Of a stretch of DNA of 64,000 nucleotides, positions 15,001-21,000 are shown piece after piece. The stretch's first letter is position 1; every line of letters begins with the position of its first letter. The DNA comes from Scyliorhinus canicula (lineage: Eukaryota): assembly GCF_902713615.1 (NCBI RefSeq), contig NC_052159.1:77414520-77478519 (forward strand), given 5' to 3'. The position numbers are program-made.

Positions 15001-18000
15001 CGTGGTTCATACTTCCATCTGTGTCTGAACAAAGGTATGGCATGCTTTAAAAAATAGTGGCCAAGTGCCCACTCCAGGATTCCTGTCCCCATTCCCATCA
15101 GATAGGAATTTTCTCGGCCTGGGATAAGGATTTGGAGAGTGAAACCACGTGCAGCAATCCTTGGAGGCGATGGGCATGTTAATCCTCTCTGCCCCATTGG
15201 GTTGGGCCCATTTTGTTCAAGGGTGTTGAAAGGGTGTAGTTTCAGACATTATTTTGGAATTAGTTTTAAAAGCTTTAGTTATTCACTGAGTGTATTGATC
15301 TGCATTGCACGCACAAACCTCAGGTGGGCGGGTCTCCGCTCGTTGGCAGAGAAGCTCATACTCTATGACTCCCATGGGAAGATCCATAGGTCTTGTGAGG
15401 GTTATTATAAAGGAAAATGGTTTTAGACAGGAAACCAAATGTAAAAAAAATGACCAAGTATATCAGCAATGTCTGCATTCCATGGAGGAGCCAGGTGCAA
15501 GAAGGTCACCTTCAGTGGGACCGGACGATTCCGCCAGTGGAGAGGGCTAGAAACTCCTACCCCTCCTCTAACACATTAGATACTTCCTCAAAAAATTCTC
15601 CGTGTTACAAATCTACATTGGCTCCCTGCTGACATGTTTATAAATGCTCAGTCACTTTGTATCCAAGAATAGATTCGATACCAACCCCTCAACTAATTTT
15701 AGATGAGAGGTCTAAACTTTTACTACCCTTATTAAATAATTACATGTCCAAAAAAGATCATTTCTGAATGCAGCATCAGGACTAAAGCATCAACAATTTC
15801 CTTGTCTACTTTTGATTAATTGCCCAAGTATGGAGATAATTGGAACACAGATATCTGTCTACTTTAATCCCATTCTTTTTTCTGTCACCCTCTTGAAATA
15901 CTCAACAATGCTCAACTGTGGGTGGCACAGTGGTTGACAGTGCTGCCTCACGGCGCTTGGGACCAGGGTCAATTCCGGCCTTGGGTGACTATCTGTGTGG
16001 AGATTGCACAGTCTCCCCATGTCTGTATGGGTTTTCTCCGGCTGCTCGAGTTTCCTCCCACAGTCCAAAGATGTGCAGGTTAGGTAGATTGGCCATGCTA
16101 AATTTCCCCTTAATATTCAAAGATGTGATTACGGGGGATAGGCTGGGGGAGTGGGTGAGGTAGGGTGCTCTTTCAGAGGGTCGGTGTAGGCTCCAGAGGC
16201 TAAATGTTCTCCTTCTACACTGGAGGGATTCTATGGATTATTGTGGGATTAGACATTTAATAGAATCATAAAATTTACAGTAAAGAAAGTGGCCATTCGG
16301 CCCATTGAGTCTGCACCAGCCCTTGGAAGGAGCACACTACCTAAGCCCACACCTCCACCCTATCCCCGTAACCCCACCTAACATGAAAATCTAGAAGTTG
16401 TTGTCAGAGATACCTGGTTCCTCCATGGGATGCAGACTTTGCTGATATACTTCGATCTGAAAGACTGGTAATGTTTTCTGTCTATAAACATTTGCCTTTA
16501 TAATGATCTTCAAGAGACCCATGTGCATGTGTGCATATCAATCGATCTCCCCTTTGAACTGGTGGAATGGGAGCTTCGCCGCCAGTGGGTTGAGGACCGC
16601 CCAGCCGGGGTTTGTAAACTCGCCCTTCAAAAGCCTTCCCAGACTGGGACTGGCATTTCTGGCACTGCCAACTGTAACCCTGGAGTTGTAAACTGCGTTG
16701 CGGTCTTTACTTTATGTTAACTAATTAAATGTTGTTTAACATATCTTCTCGGGCCTCCTGAACTTTTATAGCCTTCCTCAGAATATTTATTCTATTTACT
16801 GCATGTCATTTAAGCCAAATTTATCATTCCTGGTTTACACTTTGGCATTTCCCCAATTTAACTTTATGCAAGTTAATGGATTTTGACCAAGTTAATAACC
16901 AGCGGTAGAATTCTCAGTTTCTGAGACTATATGTTTACGCCGAGACAGGATTGGTGGATTTCCACAATGGCAAAGGTGGCACCACACCTGGACCAATTCA
17001 GCAACCATGGAGGAACTAGCACCAGCACCATGTGGAACACAATCGATTCCAATGAGAAACAGTGCCGGATTCACAATTGACACTCAGGAGACTGACAAGC
17101 TGCAGCTGTACATGCACACTTCATTCCCCACACACACCATCCCAGCCAACAAGATGGCAGCAAGGATATCAGGACCGAGATTCATAGATGCCGAGCTTGA
17201 GACCCTCCTGAACACCATGGAGGAGAGGTGGGCCATCCTGTACCCTGGCCGGGAAGTAGGCTGCCAGCCGCCGCCGTTCGCCATGCCTGGACGCAGGTAG
17301 CAGAGGCAGTAAGCGCCCGAGCAACACGATTCAGACCTGCATCAGTGCATAAGAAACTGAATGACCCTCTCAGGGAGGCCTGGGTGAGTAGGCACATAGT
17401 GCCCCTGGCACCAACCCCCGTCGCACACACCCATAATTCTACCCCTCCCCACCAGGAGGGCGGCCAAACCCCACCCTGCACATGTCAGAACCAATACTGT
17501 CCGTCATGGCTAGGTGCCCGGTCACTGAAGCCTCCAGCTATCCACCCCTGGGCTGCATGCGTTGGGCTGTCTAACACTGCGCATTTCTGTTCCCCCTCCC
17601 CCCAGGAGAATGCCACCACGACTGGGAGAAGGCAGGAGGGGGAACCACCGGACCTGCAGCCCCTCACCGTGGCAGAGCAGCGGACGCTGGACATAGTCAG
17701 TGGGCCTGAGGAAAGGGCAGTTGCCGAGGTGAAGATCGGCCTCGGATGAGGAAGTGAGACCCCACTGATTTGAAGTTCTCCCTGAGATGTGTGTCACCCC
17801 GCAACACCAGCCTCACCCCCCACACCACCCCCACACTCACACCATCCCCTCACCCCCGCTTCACACACTGCCACCATCACCACTCCCTCCCGGCACCCAG
17901 TCTAACCATGCATCCTGCTTTGCAGGACGTGCTGGGCCGGGTCCTTCTGGTGTACCCCGCCCCCAGCCACATCCAGTATCATAGCCTTTGCCACAGTCAG

Positions 18001-21000
18001 AGCAAGAGCCCCAGGAGCTTATCAGCAACAAGAACACCCACACTGAAGGGAGCCATCAACCGCGATCCAGGGCACCCCGGAGCTCGAGTCCGAGGATGAC
18101 ACTGTTTTCCCATCACAACTGTCTCTAACACCCTCCACCATCCCAGAGCCACTCACCCTGATTGGCCGCTTTAGTAAAGAGGCACATGGGACACTATCTG
18201 GTGATCACTACACAAATGCTCCAGTACATCAGGTGGTGGTCAGAACTCCCGAGGGGGCAGACAGTCAGTAGGCGGGCTAACTGCAAGGACTAGCTACCGT
18301 CCAGATGGATTTCAGGCTTCTGGAACGGACAGTGGAGATGCAGTCACATAGCGAAGGACTACATAAGGGGTTGTCGGCGGGTATCAAGCACCTGCAGGCA
18401 CAGGTGGAAGAGTTCAACTGTGTGCAGAAGCAGGTGGTGGTGCTGGCCATGCGTGCCACCCTGGCCAACACCACATGGGTGGCATCCATAGTGGAGGCCT
18501 TGGAGGCGAGGGATTCAGCTATGGATCGGCATGTCCAAGGCCTGGAGCAACCTGTGCAAGCAGTGGCCAAGGCCCAGGACAGGGCTGCCCTCTCACCAGC
18601 AGCCATGTGCCAGAGCTACCTCGACATTGCAGTGGTGTTCCTGAGCGTGGCACAGTCACTGTGGGCCATAGCTGAGCGTGTCGGCGGCATTGCCCAGGCA
18701 CTGGCCAACATGGCACAGATGCAGAGGGAGGTGGCCAGTGCCAGAGGGAGATGTCGCAGTCACTGGCTGATGTGGCACACTCGCAGCATGATGTGGTGCA
18801 GTCCCAGATGGAGGTGGTCCACGCCCTCTGCTCCATGGCCACGAGATTGCAGACCCTGTTTGAGGCGGCAGCAGGTCTTCAGGAATGGCAGCGCCAGGTG
18901 GCGGGGGTGCCTCAGGGGATGGCTCCGCTCGGATTCCCATCCCATGGAGTAGCTCAGGGCCTTCGGGTACCTCCAGAAATGAGGTGGTGATGGGGACCTG
19001 CCGGTGACTCCCGCAGGAGAGGTGCTGAAACACCGCACCACCTTGGAACCTCCTCCCTTCCATGACGCATCTCATGGGCAGCGGGAATAACAGGTTGGCA
19101 CCAGAAGCCATGCCCATCCAGACCTGGTCGCCCCAGAAGACGGCTATCAAGCAGTACCCAGGTCACAGGGCTGGACTCAAAGCAGGCTGTCTCCACTCCT
19201 GCTATACCATCTTGAGACCCACATAGACATAGCGTTAGATCCACCTAGATATAGTGTTTACCTCAGAAAAGTAGATACCAGTTAAGTTGGCATGAGTGCA
19301 GGGCACAGTTTAATGATAGGGGCTAAGGCATTTACAGTATGTGCAGAATGGAAAGCATTGATGCTGTTGTTGAGGCACCAGAAAATTAGGAATTGGTGTG
19401 AAACCGGTGCCCGCCACTATTTTGCGTCAAAACCGATTCTTCGCCCAATCGCGTTTCCCGATTCCGATGTCAGCCGACAAAGAATTCCACACCAGGAGTC
19501 TCAGTGAGAATTATTCAATCTGATTGGATGAACAGTCTACCTGCTTCTTGTCCTGCTCAGAGTTGCCACAATTTCTCTGTAAAGGCTAGCTTGCTGTATC
19601 AGACAACTGTTCGAGTGACTCTCCTACCAAAACCTTTCTGGGTAGCTATCATTAAGGTGAACAAGTGAATGTTGCTCGTTTACTACCAATCCCCAAATCT
19701 CGGCTAATAAATGTGATTAGTTCTGCCACATTATTTATTTTAAGTTTTCCTTAAGTTCCGGGATCAGCTTTCTCTCTACAATTCGAACAATTGATAATCA
19801 TTTTACATATTGGTTCAACTGCACACAGCACTCCAGATGTAGTTGCACCAGTACAGTTTGAAAATTAAAAAACTCAACAGATCCGATAGCACCCATAGAT
19901 AGAGGAACAGAGTTAATAGCCAGGATCTGCTTGTACCCTACCCCCAGTTGCGGGTTTTCCGCCAGCGGATGTATCGCCATTGGCTGGCAACATCTTTTGG
20001 TGCTGCCAAAAACAATGGTGTTTCCTTGGCTCAGAAAACCTGCCAAAGGCCAACGTGAACCTCATTTGCATTCGGGGATGAAGACTTGACCCACTCCCTC
20101 CATGCCAGATTCTCTGTGATGACGGTAGGAAAATATGCTGGCATGAAACACATTCGGAACAAGGCGGCATGCAGATGTCAGGACTCATTTGAACAATGCC
20201 TGGGACTGCCTCCATAGTTCAGGATGGAGGGAGCCTGCAACCCTGGACCCAGGAACATCACAGCAGTGGGCCAGGAATGCATCTGCAGGTGGACCTTCCA
20301 GATTAGGTGTCCTGGATGGGGTCCAACGTCCAGCCTCAGAATGTTCCTGGGTATCCACCTTCATTCTCAGGAGGTCCATCCTCTGGTTTCGGAGAGCTCC
20401 CGGAGATCTATCTTTATTTTTAGAAGGTCTACTTTCTTTCTTTAATAGTGGGCCAGTCATGTTGGCCGCCTTATCAATATGGCACCCGGACATGTCAACA
20501 GACTATGCGCCATCAGGCCTGCCCCACCACTGAATGTGGTGTAAACCACCCAGGCGCATAATTAATGAGGTTGGGGCTGGAAGATGTGGCGTGTTTTCGT
20601 CCCAACCTCAAAAGCGGGAAACACCCACGTTCCTACTCTCACCCCTTTGTCTCAAAATGGGAGAATTCAGCTCTCTGTTTCTCTCTCCACAGATAGTATC
20701 AGTCCAGCAAACTTTTTCTACCACTTTGTTTTTATTTAAATTTTCCAGCATCCGCAGCATTTTGCTCATATTTTCCCAATATAAGTTACCTTTCTGAATT
20801 TCTATCCTCTGCTAGAATTTTTTTCAACAGCCTGGAAACACTGTATGGATGGTTTTCATGACCAGTACACTAAAATGCAAGAACTCTCCTTTGTCAATAC
20901 ATAAAGTTCACTCCCATTTAACATATATTCCACATCAATCTTACCTCAGCCAATATAATAATTTCCCCATATTAAATTAAATCGATTTGTTCTTAGTCAA

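What the first reader, a model, noticed from the sequence alone, without database searches (positions are those of the whole stretch)
16903..19492. Harbinger-like element that keeps only a spliced Myb/SANT gene (copy 1)
Seen: a 2.6-kb unit with TIRs and a 3-bp TSD (CAG). It contains a three-exon gene: Myb/SANT-like trihelix exon, a short GG-P-DL..LT..E exon, and a long exon with Ala/Gln/Val heptads. I could not recognise any DDE transposase. Known: autonomous PIF/Harbinger elements encode a HARBI1-like transposase plus a Myb-like DNA-binding partner, and vertebrate NAIF1/MSANTD genes derive from the latter. Inference: this may be a lineage that spread while supplying only the DNA-binding partner, either as half of a split two-component system or as a regulator of the many MITEs, and is raw material for domestication.
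Basis: partly seen in the sequence, partly recalled or inferred. Interest (0 to 1): 0.66.

Follow-up and report, generated by a model that had tools for sequence, protein, structure and literature searches.

The report
Dead transposon carrying only Myb gene
This is a decayed copy of a shark cut-and-paste transposon that carries only the gene for the DNA-binding helper protein and no cutting enzyme, a layout so far described in print only in a nematode.

Summary
The unit at 16903-19492 is real. It ends in a short inverted motif of the form GGG[CT]G..ATTCTCC, has a perfect 3-bp duplication (CAG/CAG), and contains a three-exon remnant of a Myb_DNA-bind_5 plus coiled-coil gene. It has no DDE transposase.

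Three qualifications apply:
- **The gene is dead.** It carries 3-5 frameshifts and at least 4-5 stops, and Pfam finds no Myb domain in copy 1 itself.
- **The inverted repeat is weak in copy 1.** Its two arms agree at 9 of 14 positions. The repeat is convincing only because a diverged second copy (42987-46331, minus strand) and three short elements in the window share it.
- **The duplications are not TWA.** The termini and CAG fit the NuwaI group of PIF/Harbinger-like (PHIS) elements better than classical Harbinger.

Full-length relatives of 483-660 aa are annotated in three sharks (Scyliorhinus canicula, S. torazame, Mustelus asterias), all as "uncharacterized protein". None has a transposase domain.

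Two copies about 60% identical share the enzyme-less layout. This favours a lineage that spread in that form, using a transposase supplied from elsewhere. Genome-wide copy number and the transposase source could not be tested.

A close precedent exists in Caenorhabditis inopinata (2026). At this locus both copies are fossils inside a teneurin intron.

The parts
16900..16902 (.). Left target-site duplication, CAG
   Evidence: Read directly. Identical to 19493-19495.
16903..19492 (+). Copy 1: non-autonomous element with inverted-repeat ends, 2590 bp
   Evidence: Termini and duplication. No other DNA-level copy in the window.
16903..16916 (+). Left terminal inverted repeat (CGGTAGAATTCTCA)
   Evidence: Three mismatches to the motif. 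Aligned with 12 other termini.
17154..19242 (+). Broken three-exon gene for a Myb_DNA-bind_5 plus coiled-coil protein. Exons are 17154-17383, 17606-17753 and 17926-19242. The last bound is where homology to P0001 residue 615 of 623 ends.
   Evidence: tblastn against P0001 covers residues 3-615 over 17157-19242. One search counts, per exon: exon 1, one frameshift; exon 2, 0-1 frameshift; exon 3, 0-3 frameshifts and 2-5 stops depending on the relative used (0 frameshifts and 2 stops only against the short P0004). Splice sites read. No Pfam hit in the pieces.
19479..19492 (-). Right terminal inverted repeat (GTGTGGAATTCTTT on the minus strand)
19493..19495 (.). Right target-site duplication, CAG
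42987..46331 (-). Copy 2: diverged second element of the same layout. 3345 bp, or about 3024 bp without the nested SINE.
   Evidence: Termini are GGGTGGAATTCTCC (46331-46318, minus strand) and GGGCGTAATTCTCC (42987-43000), agreeing at 12 of 14 positions. Flanking triplets are TAT and GAT, matching at 2 of 3. Collinear with copy 1 at 58-66% identity over 17092-18998 against 45821-44105.
44046..45769 (-). Broken three-exon Myb_DNA-bind_5 plus coiled-coil gene of copy 2. Exons are 45769-45535, 45286-45130 and 45024 to about 44046.
   Evidence: Exon 1 scores 30.5 bits on Pfam Myb_DNA-bind_5, cut-off 21.7. One search counts against P0002 and P0003: exon 1, one frameshift; exon 2, none; exon 3, two frameshifts and two stops.
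45875..46195 (.). SINE-like repeat nested in the 5' part of copy 2
   Evidence: 74-84% identical to at least 8 other places in the window. The label 'SINE' is recalled, not from a tool.
25439..26102 (.). Short non-coding element (MITE A) with the same termini. Duplication TTT/TTT.
26673..27418 (.). Short non-coding element (MITE B), about 80% identical to A. Duplication AAG/AAG.
   Evidence: (families D6, D12, D14, D16).
12302..12784 (.). Short non-coding element (MITE C) with the same termini. Duplication AAG/AAG.
   Evidence: The ATTCTCC core occurs at 10.4 per kb, against 0.61 per kb in the whole window.

Best explanation
Copy 1 is a fossil of a non-autonomous cut-and-paste DNA transposon of the PIF/Harbinger-like (PHIS) kind, closest in its hallmarks to the NuwaI group.

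**What the sequence shows.** The family's working form carried one gene only. It is a three-exon gene for a protein with an N-terminal Myb/SANT-like (Myb_DNA-bind_5) DNA-binding domain, a short TGGG...LT..E motif, a disordered acidic linker and a long two-helix coiled-coil hairpin.

**Inferred mechanism, not shown here.**
- A DDE transposase encoded by another element recognises the 14-nt ends and makes a 3-nt staggered cut. That cut produces the CAG duplication.
- The element's own Myb-like protein binds transposon DNA and recruits or imports that transposase, by analogy with the zebrafish Harbinger Myb-like protein.
- The coiled-coil hairpin pairs protein molecules and so helps bring the two ends together.

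**Present state.** At this locus the gene is dead, with frameshifts and stops. The element sits, with a second dead copy of the sister subfamily, in an intron of a teneurin gene. It has no function here.
For: - **Ends and duplication.** CAG/CAG is read. The end motif occurs 21 times against 7.0 expected, and none of 100 shuffles reached that. The same 14-nt end is found on copy 2 and on three short elements with perfect 3-bp duplications TTT, AAG and AAG.
- **Chance estimate (my arithmetic).** One plus-strand match within 300 nt upstream, one minus-strand match within 300 nt downstream of the gene remnant, and a matching triplet together come to about 4e-6.
- **Gene.** Copy 1 aligns to P0001 residues 3-615. 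The copy 1 open reading frame at 18305-18949 finds 6 proteins among 1.84 billion representatives, the best at 2e-14.
- **Domain.** Three of those 6 proteins, and 5 of all 11 relatives, carry Myb_DNA-bind_5 above the cut-off, and nothing else above a cut-off apart from Myb_DNA-bind_4 in P0003.
- **Introns.** Their positions are shared by both copies and match the residue 126|127 junction of P0003.
- **No transposase.** None of 151 segments of the two copies has a transposase domain. None of 163 segments of at least 80 aa in the rest of the window has one either.
- **Two subfamilies.** Copy 1 scores best with the P0001 group (252.8 summed bits, against 166.7 and 210.4). Copy 2 scores best with P0002 and P0003 (255.0 and 298.9, against 175.7).
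- **Structure.** The AlphaFold model of P0003 has Myb helices at pLDDT 80-92 and two long helices, 292-381 and 388-472, at about 70-76. The profile also matches designed coiled coils.
- **Group hallmarks and role of the protein.** NuwaI has CWG duplications, repeats starting GGG, and DDE plus Myb/SANT genes (Han et al. 2015, section 7 read). The role of the Myb-like partner comes from passages of PMC9392472 that cite Sinzelle et al. 2008.
Against: - No transposase of any kind was found, so membership of a superfamily rests on ends, duplication and the Myb gene only.
- None of the 4 perfect duplications is TWA, and only 1 of 4 (CAG) is CWG.
- Copy 1's own arms match at only 9 of 14 positions.
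- The subterminal regions of copies 1 and 2 do not align. Only 89 columns are identical between the two 200-nt ends, and the 5' ends give nothing convincing.
- The repeated ATTCTCC core seen in the short elements is absent from copy 1's ends.
- Copy number outside this window is unknown.
- The structure model is poor overall (mean pLDDT 52.4, five sequences), and Foldseek gave no hit at E <= 0.001.
Confidence: 0.78

Rival explanations
1. Independent deletion derivatives. Copies 1 and 2 each descend from an ordinary two-gene element (Myb-like gene plus DDE transposase) and each lost the transposase gene by its own internal deletion. On this view the enzyme-less form never spread as such.
For: - Copy 2 keeps about 1.05 kb of unassigned sequence between the end of its gene and its end repeat (42987-44045). 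Copy 1 keeps only 0.25 kb.
- The two 3' regions do not align, so a shared deletion junction cannot be shown.
- Autonomous NuwaI candidates average about 4.46 kb.
Against: - No transposase trace in 151 of 151 six-frame segments of at least 30 aa.
- Both diverged subfamilies have the same layout.
- All 11 relatives found are proteins with Myb only or no domain at all.
- In the one published parallel, the forms carrying only the DNA-binding gene are the ones that expanded.
Confidence: 0.14
2. Gene capture or host gene. A short non-coding element of the GGGCGGGATTCTCC kind picked up a host Myb/SANT gene with its introns. Alternatively, the intact shark genes are host (domesticated) genes and the window copies are their dead duplicates.
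For: - The Myb-bearing copies share only the terminal 14-16 nt with the abundant short elements.
- LOC119953007 and LOC119953008 of S. canicula have consecutive locus numbers and lie on one 131.9-Mb sequence, which could mean a tandem host gene pair.
- Vertebrates have domesticated Harbinger Myb-like genes repeatedly (PMC9392472, passages).
Against: - Two copies only about 60% identical each have both ends, and copy 1 has a perfect duplication. A gene captured once and then diversified is still a transposon lineage.
- Myb_DNA-bind_5 is the domain type of the Harbinger partner protein.
- The Atlas nearest neighbours are chordate Myb_DNA-bind_5 clusters (0.93, 0.91) and NAIF1 (0.89).
Confidence: 0.06
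3. Chance. The end motifs and the CAG triplets are coincidences, and the unit is just a dead duplicate of a gene.
For: The arms of copy 1 agree at only 9 of 14 positions, and the repeat finder did not report them. One motif match also lies inside exon 2 (17605-17618), which shows that chance matches do occur.
Against: - The motif is enriched threefold, with none of 100 shuffles reaching the count.
- The same motif sits in the expected orientation at both ends of both copies.
- Four elements have perfect 3-bp duplications.
Confidence: 0.02

Closest known systems
Harbinger-1M_cIno and Harbinger-2M_cIno of Caenorhabditis inopinata (Sato et al. 2026, PMC13668399; abstract and sections 8 and 12 read)
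   Same: Elements with inverted-repeat ends and 3-bp duplications that keep the DNA-binding-protein gene and lack a DDE transposase gene. They are accompanied by many short non-coding derivatives. The transposase is thought to be supplied from elsewhere, and many copies are pseudogenes.
   Different: - The nematode protein has a MADF domain; this one has Myb_DNA-bind_5 plus a long coiled-coil hairpin.
- The nematode duplications are TWA; here they are CAG, AAG, AAG and TTT.
- The nematode element is 1.63 kb; these are 2.6-3.0 kb with two introns.
- For the nematode a DDE source locus and genome-wide counts are known. Here neither could be examined.
NuwaI group of the PHIS (PIF/Harbinger, ISL2EU, Spy) superfamily (Han et al. 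2015, PMC4482050; passages and section 7 read)
   Same: Three-bp duplication of the form CWG (copy 1 has CAG). End repeats of 12-61 bp usually start with GGG. A Myb/SANT partner gene is present, and the group is found mostly in fishes.
   Different: - NuwaI autonomous candidates carry a DDE gene as well and average about 4.46 kb.
- None was reported from cartilaginous fishes in the section read.
- The short elements here have AAG and TTT duplications, which are not CWG.
Harbinger3_DR Myb-like protein and its domesticated vertebrate relatives NAIF1 and MSANTD1-4 (as summarised in PMC9392472, passages read; Sinzelle et al. 2008 itself not read)
   Same: An N-terminal three-helix Myb/SANT-like domain of the Myb_DNA-bind_5 type. 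NAIF1 is among the Atlas look-alikes at 0.89.
   Different: - NAIF1 and the MSANTD genes are single-copy host genes without end repeats. The window copies have end repeats and a duplication.
- No look-alike was found for the coiled-coil half: the best Atlas score was 0.78, and PDB sequence hits were only designed coiled coils.
Tourist-type MITEs with the mPing / Ping / Pong system of rice (named in the discussion of PMC13668399; otherwise recalled)
   Same: Short non-coding elements that share only their termini with longer protein-coding relatives and depend on proteins supplied from elsewhere.
   Different: Ping and Pong encode both proteins, whereas this element encodes only the DNA-binding one. 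The target there is TWA.

Membership tests
PIF/Harbinger-like (PHIS) superfamily | DDE transposase of the DDE_Tnp_4 / Harbinger type, in the element or in a partner with the same ends | tested here: not met
   No transposase domain in any of 151 six-frame segments of at least 30 aa from both copies. None in any of 163 segments of at least 80 aa from the rest of the window. A partner elsewhere in the genome could not be looked for.
PIF/Harbinger-like (PHIS) superfamily | 3-bp target-site duplication | tested here: met
   Copy 1 has CAG/CAG. Elements with the same termini have TTT/TTT, AAG/AAG and AAG/AAG. Copy 2 matches at 2 of 3 positions. The pair 9749/9982 does not match (AAT/ATT).
PIF/Harbinger-like (PHIS) superfamily | Second gene for a Myb/SANT-like DNA-binding protein | tested here: met
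   Copy 2 exon 1 scores 30.5 bits on Myb_DNA-bind_5 against a cut-off of 21.7. For copy 1 the assignment is by homology only, to P0001 and P0004. Its own pieces give no Pfam hit.
PIF/Harbinger in the strict sense | TWA target-site duplication | tested here: not met
   None of the 4 perfect duplications is TWA.
NuwaI group (Han et al. 2015) | CWG target-site duplication | tested here: inconclusive
   Copy 1 has CAG, which fits. The three short elements with the same termini have AAG, AAG and TTT, which do not. Definition taken.
NuwaI group (Han et al. 2015) | End repeats of 12-61 bp that usually start with GGG | tested here: met
   Both ends of copy 2 and 5 of the 6 ends of the three short elements start with GGG; one end of MITE C starts GGC and one end of MITE B reads GAG. 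The ends of copy 1 start CGG and GTG, which I read as decay. The conserved block is about 14 nt.
NuwaI group (Han et al. 2015) | Transposase that clusters with NuwaI transposases | not testable with these tools
DNA-binding-gene-only Harbinger derivatives (configuration of Sato et al. 2026) | End repeats and duplication, DNA-binding gene kept, no DDE gene | tested here: met
DNA-binding-gene-only Harbinger derivatives (configuration of Sato et al. 2026) | The form is itself multi-copy, and a DDE source with the same ends exists elsewhere | not testable with these tools
   Only two copies could be seen, both in the window. tblastn of 11 relatives gave 16 hits in copy 1, 22 in copy 2 and none elsewhere.
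Domesticated Harbinger Myb-like genes (NAIF1, MSANTD) | Single-copy host gene without end repeats, intact reading frame, syntenic orthologues | tested here: not met
   Both window copies have end repeats and broken frames. Synteny of the intact shark loci was not testable.

The most novel reading that the evidence does not exclude
Sharks may harbour a long-lived PHIS lineage that exists only as Myb-gene elements. Its two subfamilies have diverged to about 60% DNA identity, yet both lack a transposase and both still have intact, annotated members in catsharks and a houndshark. On this reading the lineage is one half of a split two-component transposon system. Alternatively it is a recently co-opted DNA-binding protein with a novel coiled-coil hairpin that acts on the abundant short elements ending in GGGCGGGATTCTCC. 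Either way it would be the first vertebrate case of the configuration reported in 2026 for a nematode.
Probability: 0.3. Interest if true: 0.6.

Novelty: new member of a known kind. Interest (0 to 1): 0.36.

Why it matters
Harbinger-type transposons need two proteins: a cutting enzyme and a DNA-binding partner. If the shark family really spread while carrying only the partner gene, it would be a second, independent example of that labour being split across separate elements. It would also be the first in vertebrates.

Such elements are the plausible starting material for the repeated domestication of Myb-like genes such as NAIF1 and the MSANTD genes. The coiled-coil half of the protein has no recognised relative and could show how such partners pair the ends of a transposon.

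For this particular locus the practical message is ordinary. There are two dead transposon copies in a teneurin intron, and they should be masked rather than annotated as genes.

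Tried and rejected
- **The repeat finder for the end repeats.** With seed 7, none of 40 inverted pairs joined the ends. The repeats were found only after copy 2 was located.
- **blastn of the element against the window.** Self-hit only. The second copy was found with tblastn of the reading-frame pieces.
- **Pfam on whole-frame translations.** Stop-to-stop segments were used instead.
- **The search for homologous proteins with the coiled-coil reading frame, 'longer'.** There were 1827 candidates, and none scored.
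- **The listing of cluster members.** The database was switched off, so the sources and names of P0002 and P0004-P0006 stay unknown.
- **Subterminal homology between copies 1 and 2, and between either copy and the short elements.** None beyond the 14-16 terminal bases.
- **Repeated binding-site-like motifs in copy 1's ends.** GATTC occurs twice in each roughly 250-nt end, against 2.2 per kb in the window, which is too few to count. The ATTCTCC core is absent.
- **Paralogous empty site for either copy.** None. Only SINE-like hits turned up in the left flank of copy 1.
- **Rfam.** No family reached its gathering score.
- **Tandem repeats.** Only low-complexity rows in intron 2 and one 22-nt repeat of two copies.
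- **Coiled-coil domain look-alikes.** The Atlas best score was 0.78. PDB sequence hits were designed coiled coils only. Foldseek's best hits were bacterial chemoreceptor hairpins at E of 2.9e-3 or weaker. I read these as shape resemblance, not kinship.
- **SNARE likeness (TSNARE1 in mind).** No SNARE family appeared in Pfam. I saw only the search listing for the TSNARE1 papers.
- **dN/dS.** Not computed. The two window copies are both pseudogenes at about 60% identity, which is saturated, and no coding DNA of the intact relatives was available.
- **Joined three-exon model.** Not searched. All searches were made exon by exon or reading frame by reading frame.
- **Supplements of Han et al. 2015.** Closed.

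Full report
**1. What the window is**

The window has 64,000 bases and no N. It is eukaryotic and full of interspersed repeats.

- **Host gene.** Two exons of a teneurin gene lie on the minus strand. They match Pfam Ten_N at profile positions 1-68 (61163-61744) and 62-160 (51182-51505).
- **Position of the two elements.** Both lie further down that strand, so most likely in the next teneurin intron. Copy 1 is antisense to teneurin and copy 2 is sense.
- **Source organism.** The closest proteins found are all from sharks. I do not take the contig for human, and I did not try to name the source.

**2. The observation**

*Ends and duplication.* CAG lies at 16900-16902 and at 19493-19495, directly outside 16903 and 19492.

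- The two terminal 14-mers of copy 1 agree at only 9 of 14 positions. The repeat finder did not report them: 40 inverted pairs were found, and none joined the ends.
- The ends became convincing only by comparison.

*Finding the second copy.*

- tblastn of eight reading-frame pieces found a diverged second copy on the minus strand. Four of the 8 pieces gave collinear matches between 45748 and 44157, with E-values from 1.6e-4 to 0.31.
- Copy 2 ends in GGGTGGAATTCTCC (46331-46318) and GGGCGTAATTCTCC (42987-43000), which agree at 12 of 14 positions.

*The shared end motif.*

- With up to three mismatches the motif occurs 21 times in the window, against 7.02 +/- 2.95 expected. None of 100 shuffles reached 21.
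- The matches include both ends of copy 1 and the ends of three short non-coding elements with perfect 3-bp duplications:
  - 25439-26102, TTT/TTT
  - 26673-27418, AAG/AAG
  - 12302-12784, AAG/AAG
- A fourth candidate pair, 9749/9982, has AAT/ATT, which do not match. Copy 2 has TAT/GAT, matching at 2 of 3 positions.
- From the background rate, I estimate the chance of one correctly oriented match within 300 nt on each side of the gene remnant plus a matching triplet at about 4e-6. This is my arithmetic, not a tool result.

**3. The gene**

*Exons and splice sites.*

| | Exon 1 | Exon 2 | Exon 3 | Intron 1 | Intron 2 |
|---|---|---|---|---|---|
| Copy 1 | 17154-17383 | 17606-17753 | from 17926 | 222 nt | 172 nt |
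| Copy 2 | 45769-45535 | 45286-45130 | from 45024 | 248 nt | 105 nt |

- Copy 2 has the same three-exon plan, with the same gtgagt donor after exon 1.
- In copy 2, exon 1 aligns to P0003 up to residue 126 and exon 2 begins at residue 127. This supports the first intron.

*Relatives of the coiled-coil part.*

- The copy 1 reading frame at 18305-18949 was scored against 1.84 billion representative proteins. Six had E <= 0.001, and the best was P0001 at 2e-14 and 40% identity.
- Word-indexed searches added P0007-P0011.
- NCBI names for these relatives:
  - P0001: 'uncharacterized protein LOC119953007 isoform X1' of Scyliorhinus canicula
  - P0008 and P0009: further S. canicula loci
  - P0007: S. 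torazame
  - P0003, P0010 and P0011: Mustelus asterias

*Domains.*

- Five of the 11 relatives pass the Pfam cut-off for Myb_DNA-bind_5. None of the 11 has a transposase domain.
- Copy 1 aligns to P0001 residues 3-615 over 17157-19242.
- Copy 1's own pieces give no Pfam family above a cut-off: none of 14 reading frames and none of 63 stop-to-stop segments.
- Copy 2 exon 1 does pass, at 30.5 bits against a cut-off of 21.7.
- All searches were made exon by exon or reading frame by reading frame. The joined-exon step was left out.

**4. State of the genes**

Frameshift-aware alignment was done exon by exon, and only counts and outer bounds were kept.

| Copy | Compared with | Exon 1 | Exon 2 | Exon 3 |
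|---|---|---|---|---|
| 1 | P0001, P0007 | 1 frameshift | 0-1 frameshift | 2-3 frameshifts, 4-5 stops |
| 2 | P0002, P0003 | 1 frameshift | none | 2 frameshifts, 2 stops |

- Against the shorter P0004, copy 1 exon 3 shows no frameshift and 2 stops.
- These are lower bounds, because parts of the exons fell outside the local alignments.
- Both genes are pseudogenes.
- Copy 2 also carries a nested SINE-like repeat at about 45875-46195. The label 'SINE' is recalled, not from a tool.

**5. No transposase**

- All 151 six-frame stop-to-stop segments of at least 30 aa from the two copies were scanned: 150 and the last. The only family above a cut-off was Myb_DNA-bind_5.
- All 163 segments of at least 80 aa outside the copies were scanned: 150 and 13. 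Three had hits: an Exo_endo_phos fragment at 119-664 (minus strand) and the two Ten_N exons.
- tblastn of the 11 relatives against the window gave 16 hits in copy 1, 22 in copy 2 and none elsewhere.

**6. Two subfamilies with one layout**

- Copies 1 and 2 are collinear at 58-66% DNA identity, but only over 17092-18998 against 45821-44105. That span is the leader next to the start codon plus the exons.
- Introns and subterminal regions do not align.
- Copy 1 scores best with the P0001 group and copy 2 with the P0002/P0003 group.
- Between the two protein groups the Myb domain is the most conserved part: 266 of 528 aligned cells are identical (50%), against 29-36% in the other regions downstream of it.
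- I infer the following:
  - Both subfamilies diverged while the protein was under constraint.
  - Both already lacked a transposase gene.
  - Both coexist in the source genome.

**7. The protein**

- The AlphaFold model of P0003 is poor overall (five-sequence alignment, mean pLDDT 52.4), but it has confident parts:
  - Three Myb-type helices within residues 60-137, at pLDDT 80-92.
  - A disordered stretch at 164-298.
  - Two long helices, 292-381 and 388-472, at about 70-76.
- The profile of the family matches only designed coiled coils in the PDB by sequence. The best is 8qae_A at 8.6e-17, and I read this as compositional.
- Foldseek found no hit at E <= 0.001. The nearest shapes are bacterial chemoreceptor helical hairpins.
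- The Atlas places the whole protein next to chordate Myb_DNA-bind_5 clusters (0.93, 0.91) and NAIF1 (0.89). It finds nothing credible for the coiled-coil half, where the best score is 0.78.

**8. How it most likely works**

*Shown*
- Ends, duplication, gene content and decay.

*Inferred*
- The family moved by cut-and-paste with a 3-nt staggered cut, made by a DDE transposase encoded elsewhere.
- The element's Myb-like protein bound the element's DNA and recruited or imported the transposase, as reported for the zebrafish Harbinger. I know this only from passages of PMC9392472 that cite Sinzelle et al. 2008; that paper itself was not read.
- The coiled-coil hairpin paired the protein.

*Speculative*
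- The abundant short elements share only the terminal 14-16 nt with the Myb-bearing copies, and they repeat the ATTCTCC core internally at 4.5-10.4 per kb against 0.61 per kb in the window. They probably used the same transposase. That the Myb protein regulates them is speculation.

**9. Comparison with what is known**

- **Han et al. 2015 (PMC4482050; passages and section 7 read).** They define the NuwaI group of the PHIS superfamily by CWG duplications, end repeats of 12-61 bp that usually start GGG, and two genes (DDE plus Myb/SANT), mostly in bony fishes.
  - Copy 1's CAG and the GGG termini fit this group.
  - The AAG and TTT duplications of the short elements do not fit.
  - The classical TWA target is met by none of the 4 perfect duplications.
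- **Sato et al. 2026 (PMC13668399; abstract and sections 8 and 12 read).** They describe C. inopinata Harbinger families that keep the MADF gene and lack the DDE gene. There are 258 and 1,376 copies, with one intact DDE locus. They state that this configuration had not been reported before in the superfamily.
- **Sharks in print.**
  - One paper did not detect Harbinger in the elephant shark and called for other cartilaginous fishes to be examined (PMC9179366, passages).
  - Two genome papers list PIF/Harbinger among shark repeats: PMC12498223 (one passage) and PMC8455134 (one passage).
  - Searches returned no paper that, by its title or abstract or in the passages I read, describes a Myb-only Harbinger-like element in a shark. 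This covers only the library searched, and I did not open every listed paper.

**10. Verdict**

- The key claims were not testable here: genome-wide amplification of the enzyme-less form, and the existence or absence of a matching transposase.
- Reasons they were not testable:
  - No shark genome is in the open collections.
- I file it as a new, vertebrate member of a kind of element first described in 2026. The coiled-coil domain is unexplained and the target-site preference is not classical.

Noticed in passing
window 61163-61744 (-) and 51182-51505 (-): Two coding exons of a teneurin gene. They match Pfam Ten_N at profile positions 1-68 (106.8 bits) and 62-160 (152.2 bits). Both transposon copies lie downstream on that strand, probably in the next intron.
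   Followed up: partly
window 25439-26102 and 26673-27418: Two copies, about 80% identical and 1317 bp apart in the same orientation, of a CpG-rich short element with the shared termini. Each contains a palindromic GCGCATGCGC-type block (25858-25918 and 27132-27192, 90% identical) and hairpin-like repeats of the end core.
   Followed up: partly
window 119-664 (-): Fragment of an endonuclease domain (Exo_endo_phos, 30.8 bits), presumably a LINE remnant in the GC-rich first 2 kb.
   Followed up: no
window 4562-4776, 15965-16120, 29751-30209, 33602-33758, 45875-46195, 49669-49978, 62421-62642 and others: A SINE-like repeat family with at least 8 copies at 72-90% identity. One copy is nested in copy 2. 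No Rfam family or tRNA-type match reached threshold for the window.
   Followed up: partly
window 11583-11737, 33086-33240, 37627-37781, 58606-58705: A 100-155-nt repeat whose copies are up to 96-97% identical (families D3, I5, I6). This is much younger-looking than the other repeats in the window.
   Followed up: no
window 41518-41618: Truncated 5' part of a short element with the shared terminus (GGGCGAAATTCTCC), followed by a second terminus-like motif at 41605. No partner end was found.
   Followed up: no
window 42987-44045 (-): About 1.05 kb of GC-rich sequence between the end of copy 2's gene and its end repeat. It has open stretches of up to 136 aa, no Pfam match and no other copy in the window. 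Its origin is unexplained.
   Followed up: partly
window 26568-26596 and 27287-27316: Long runs of G inside or next to the short elements. They may be real homopolymers or trouble spots of the assembly.
   Followed up: no
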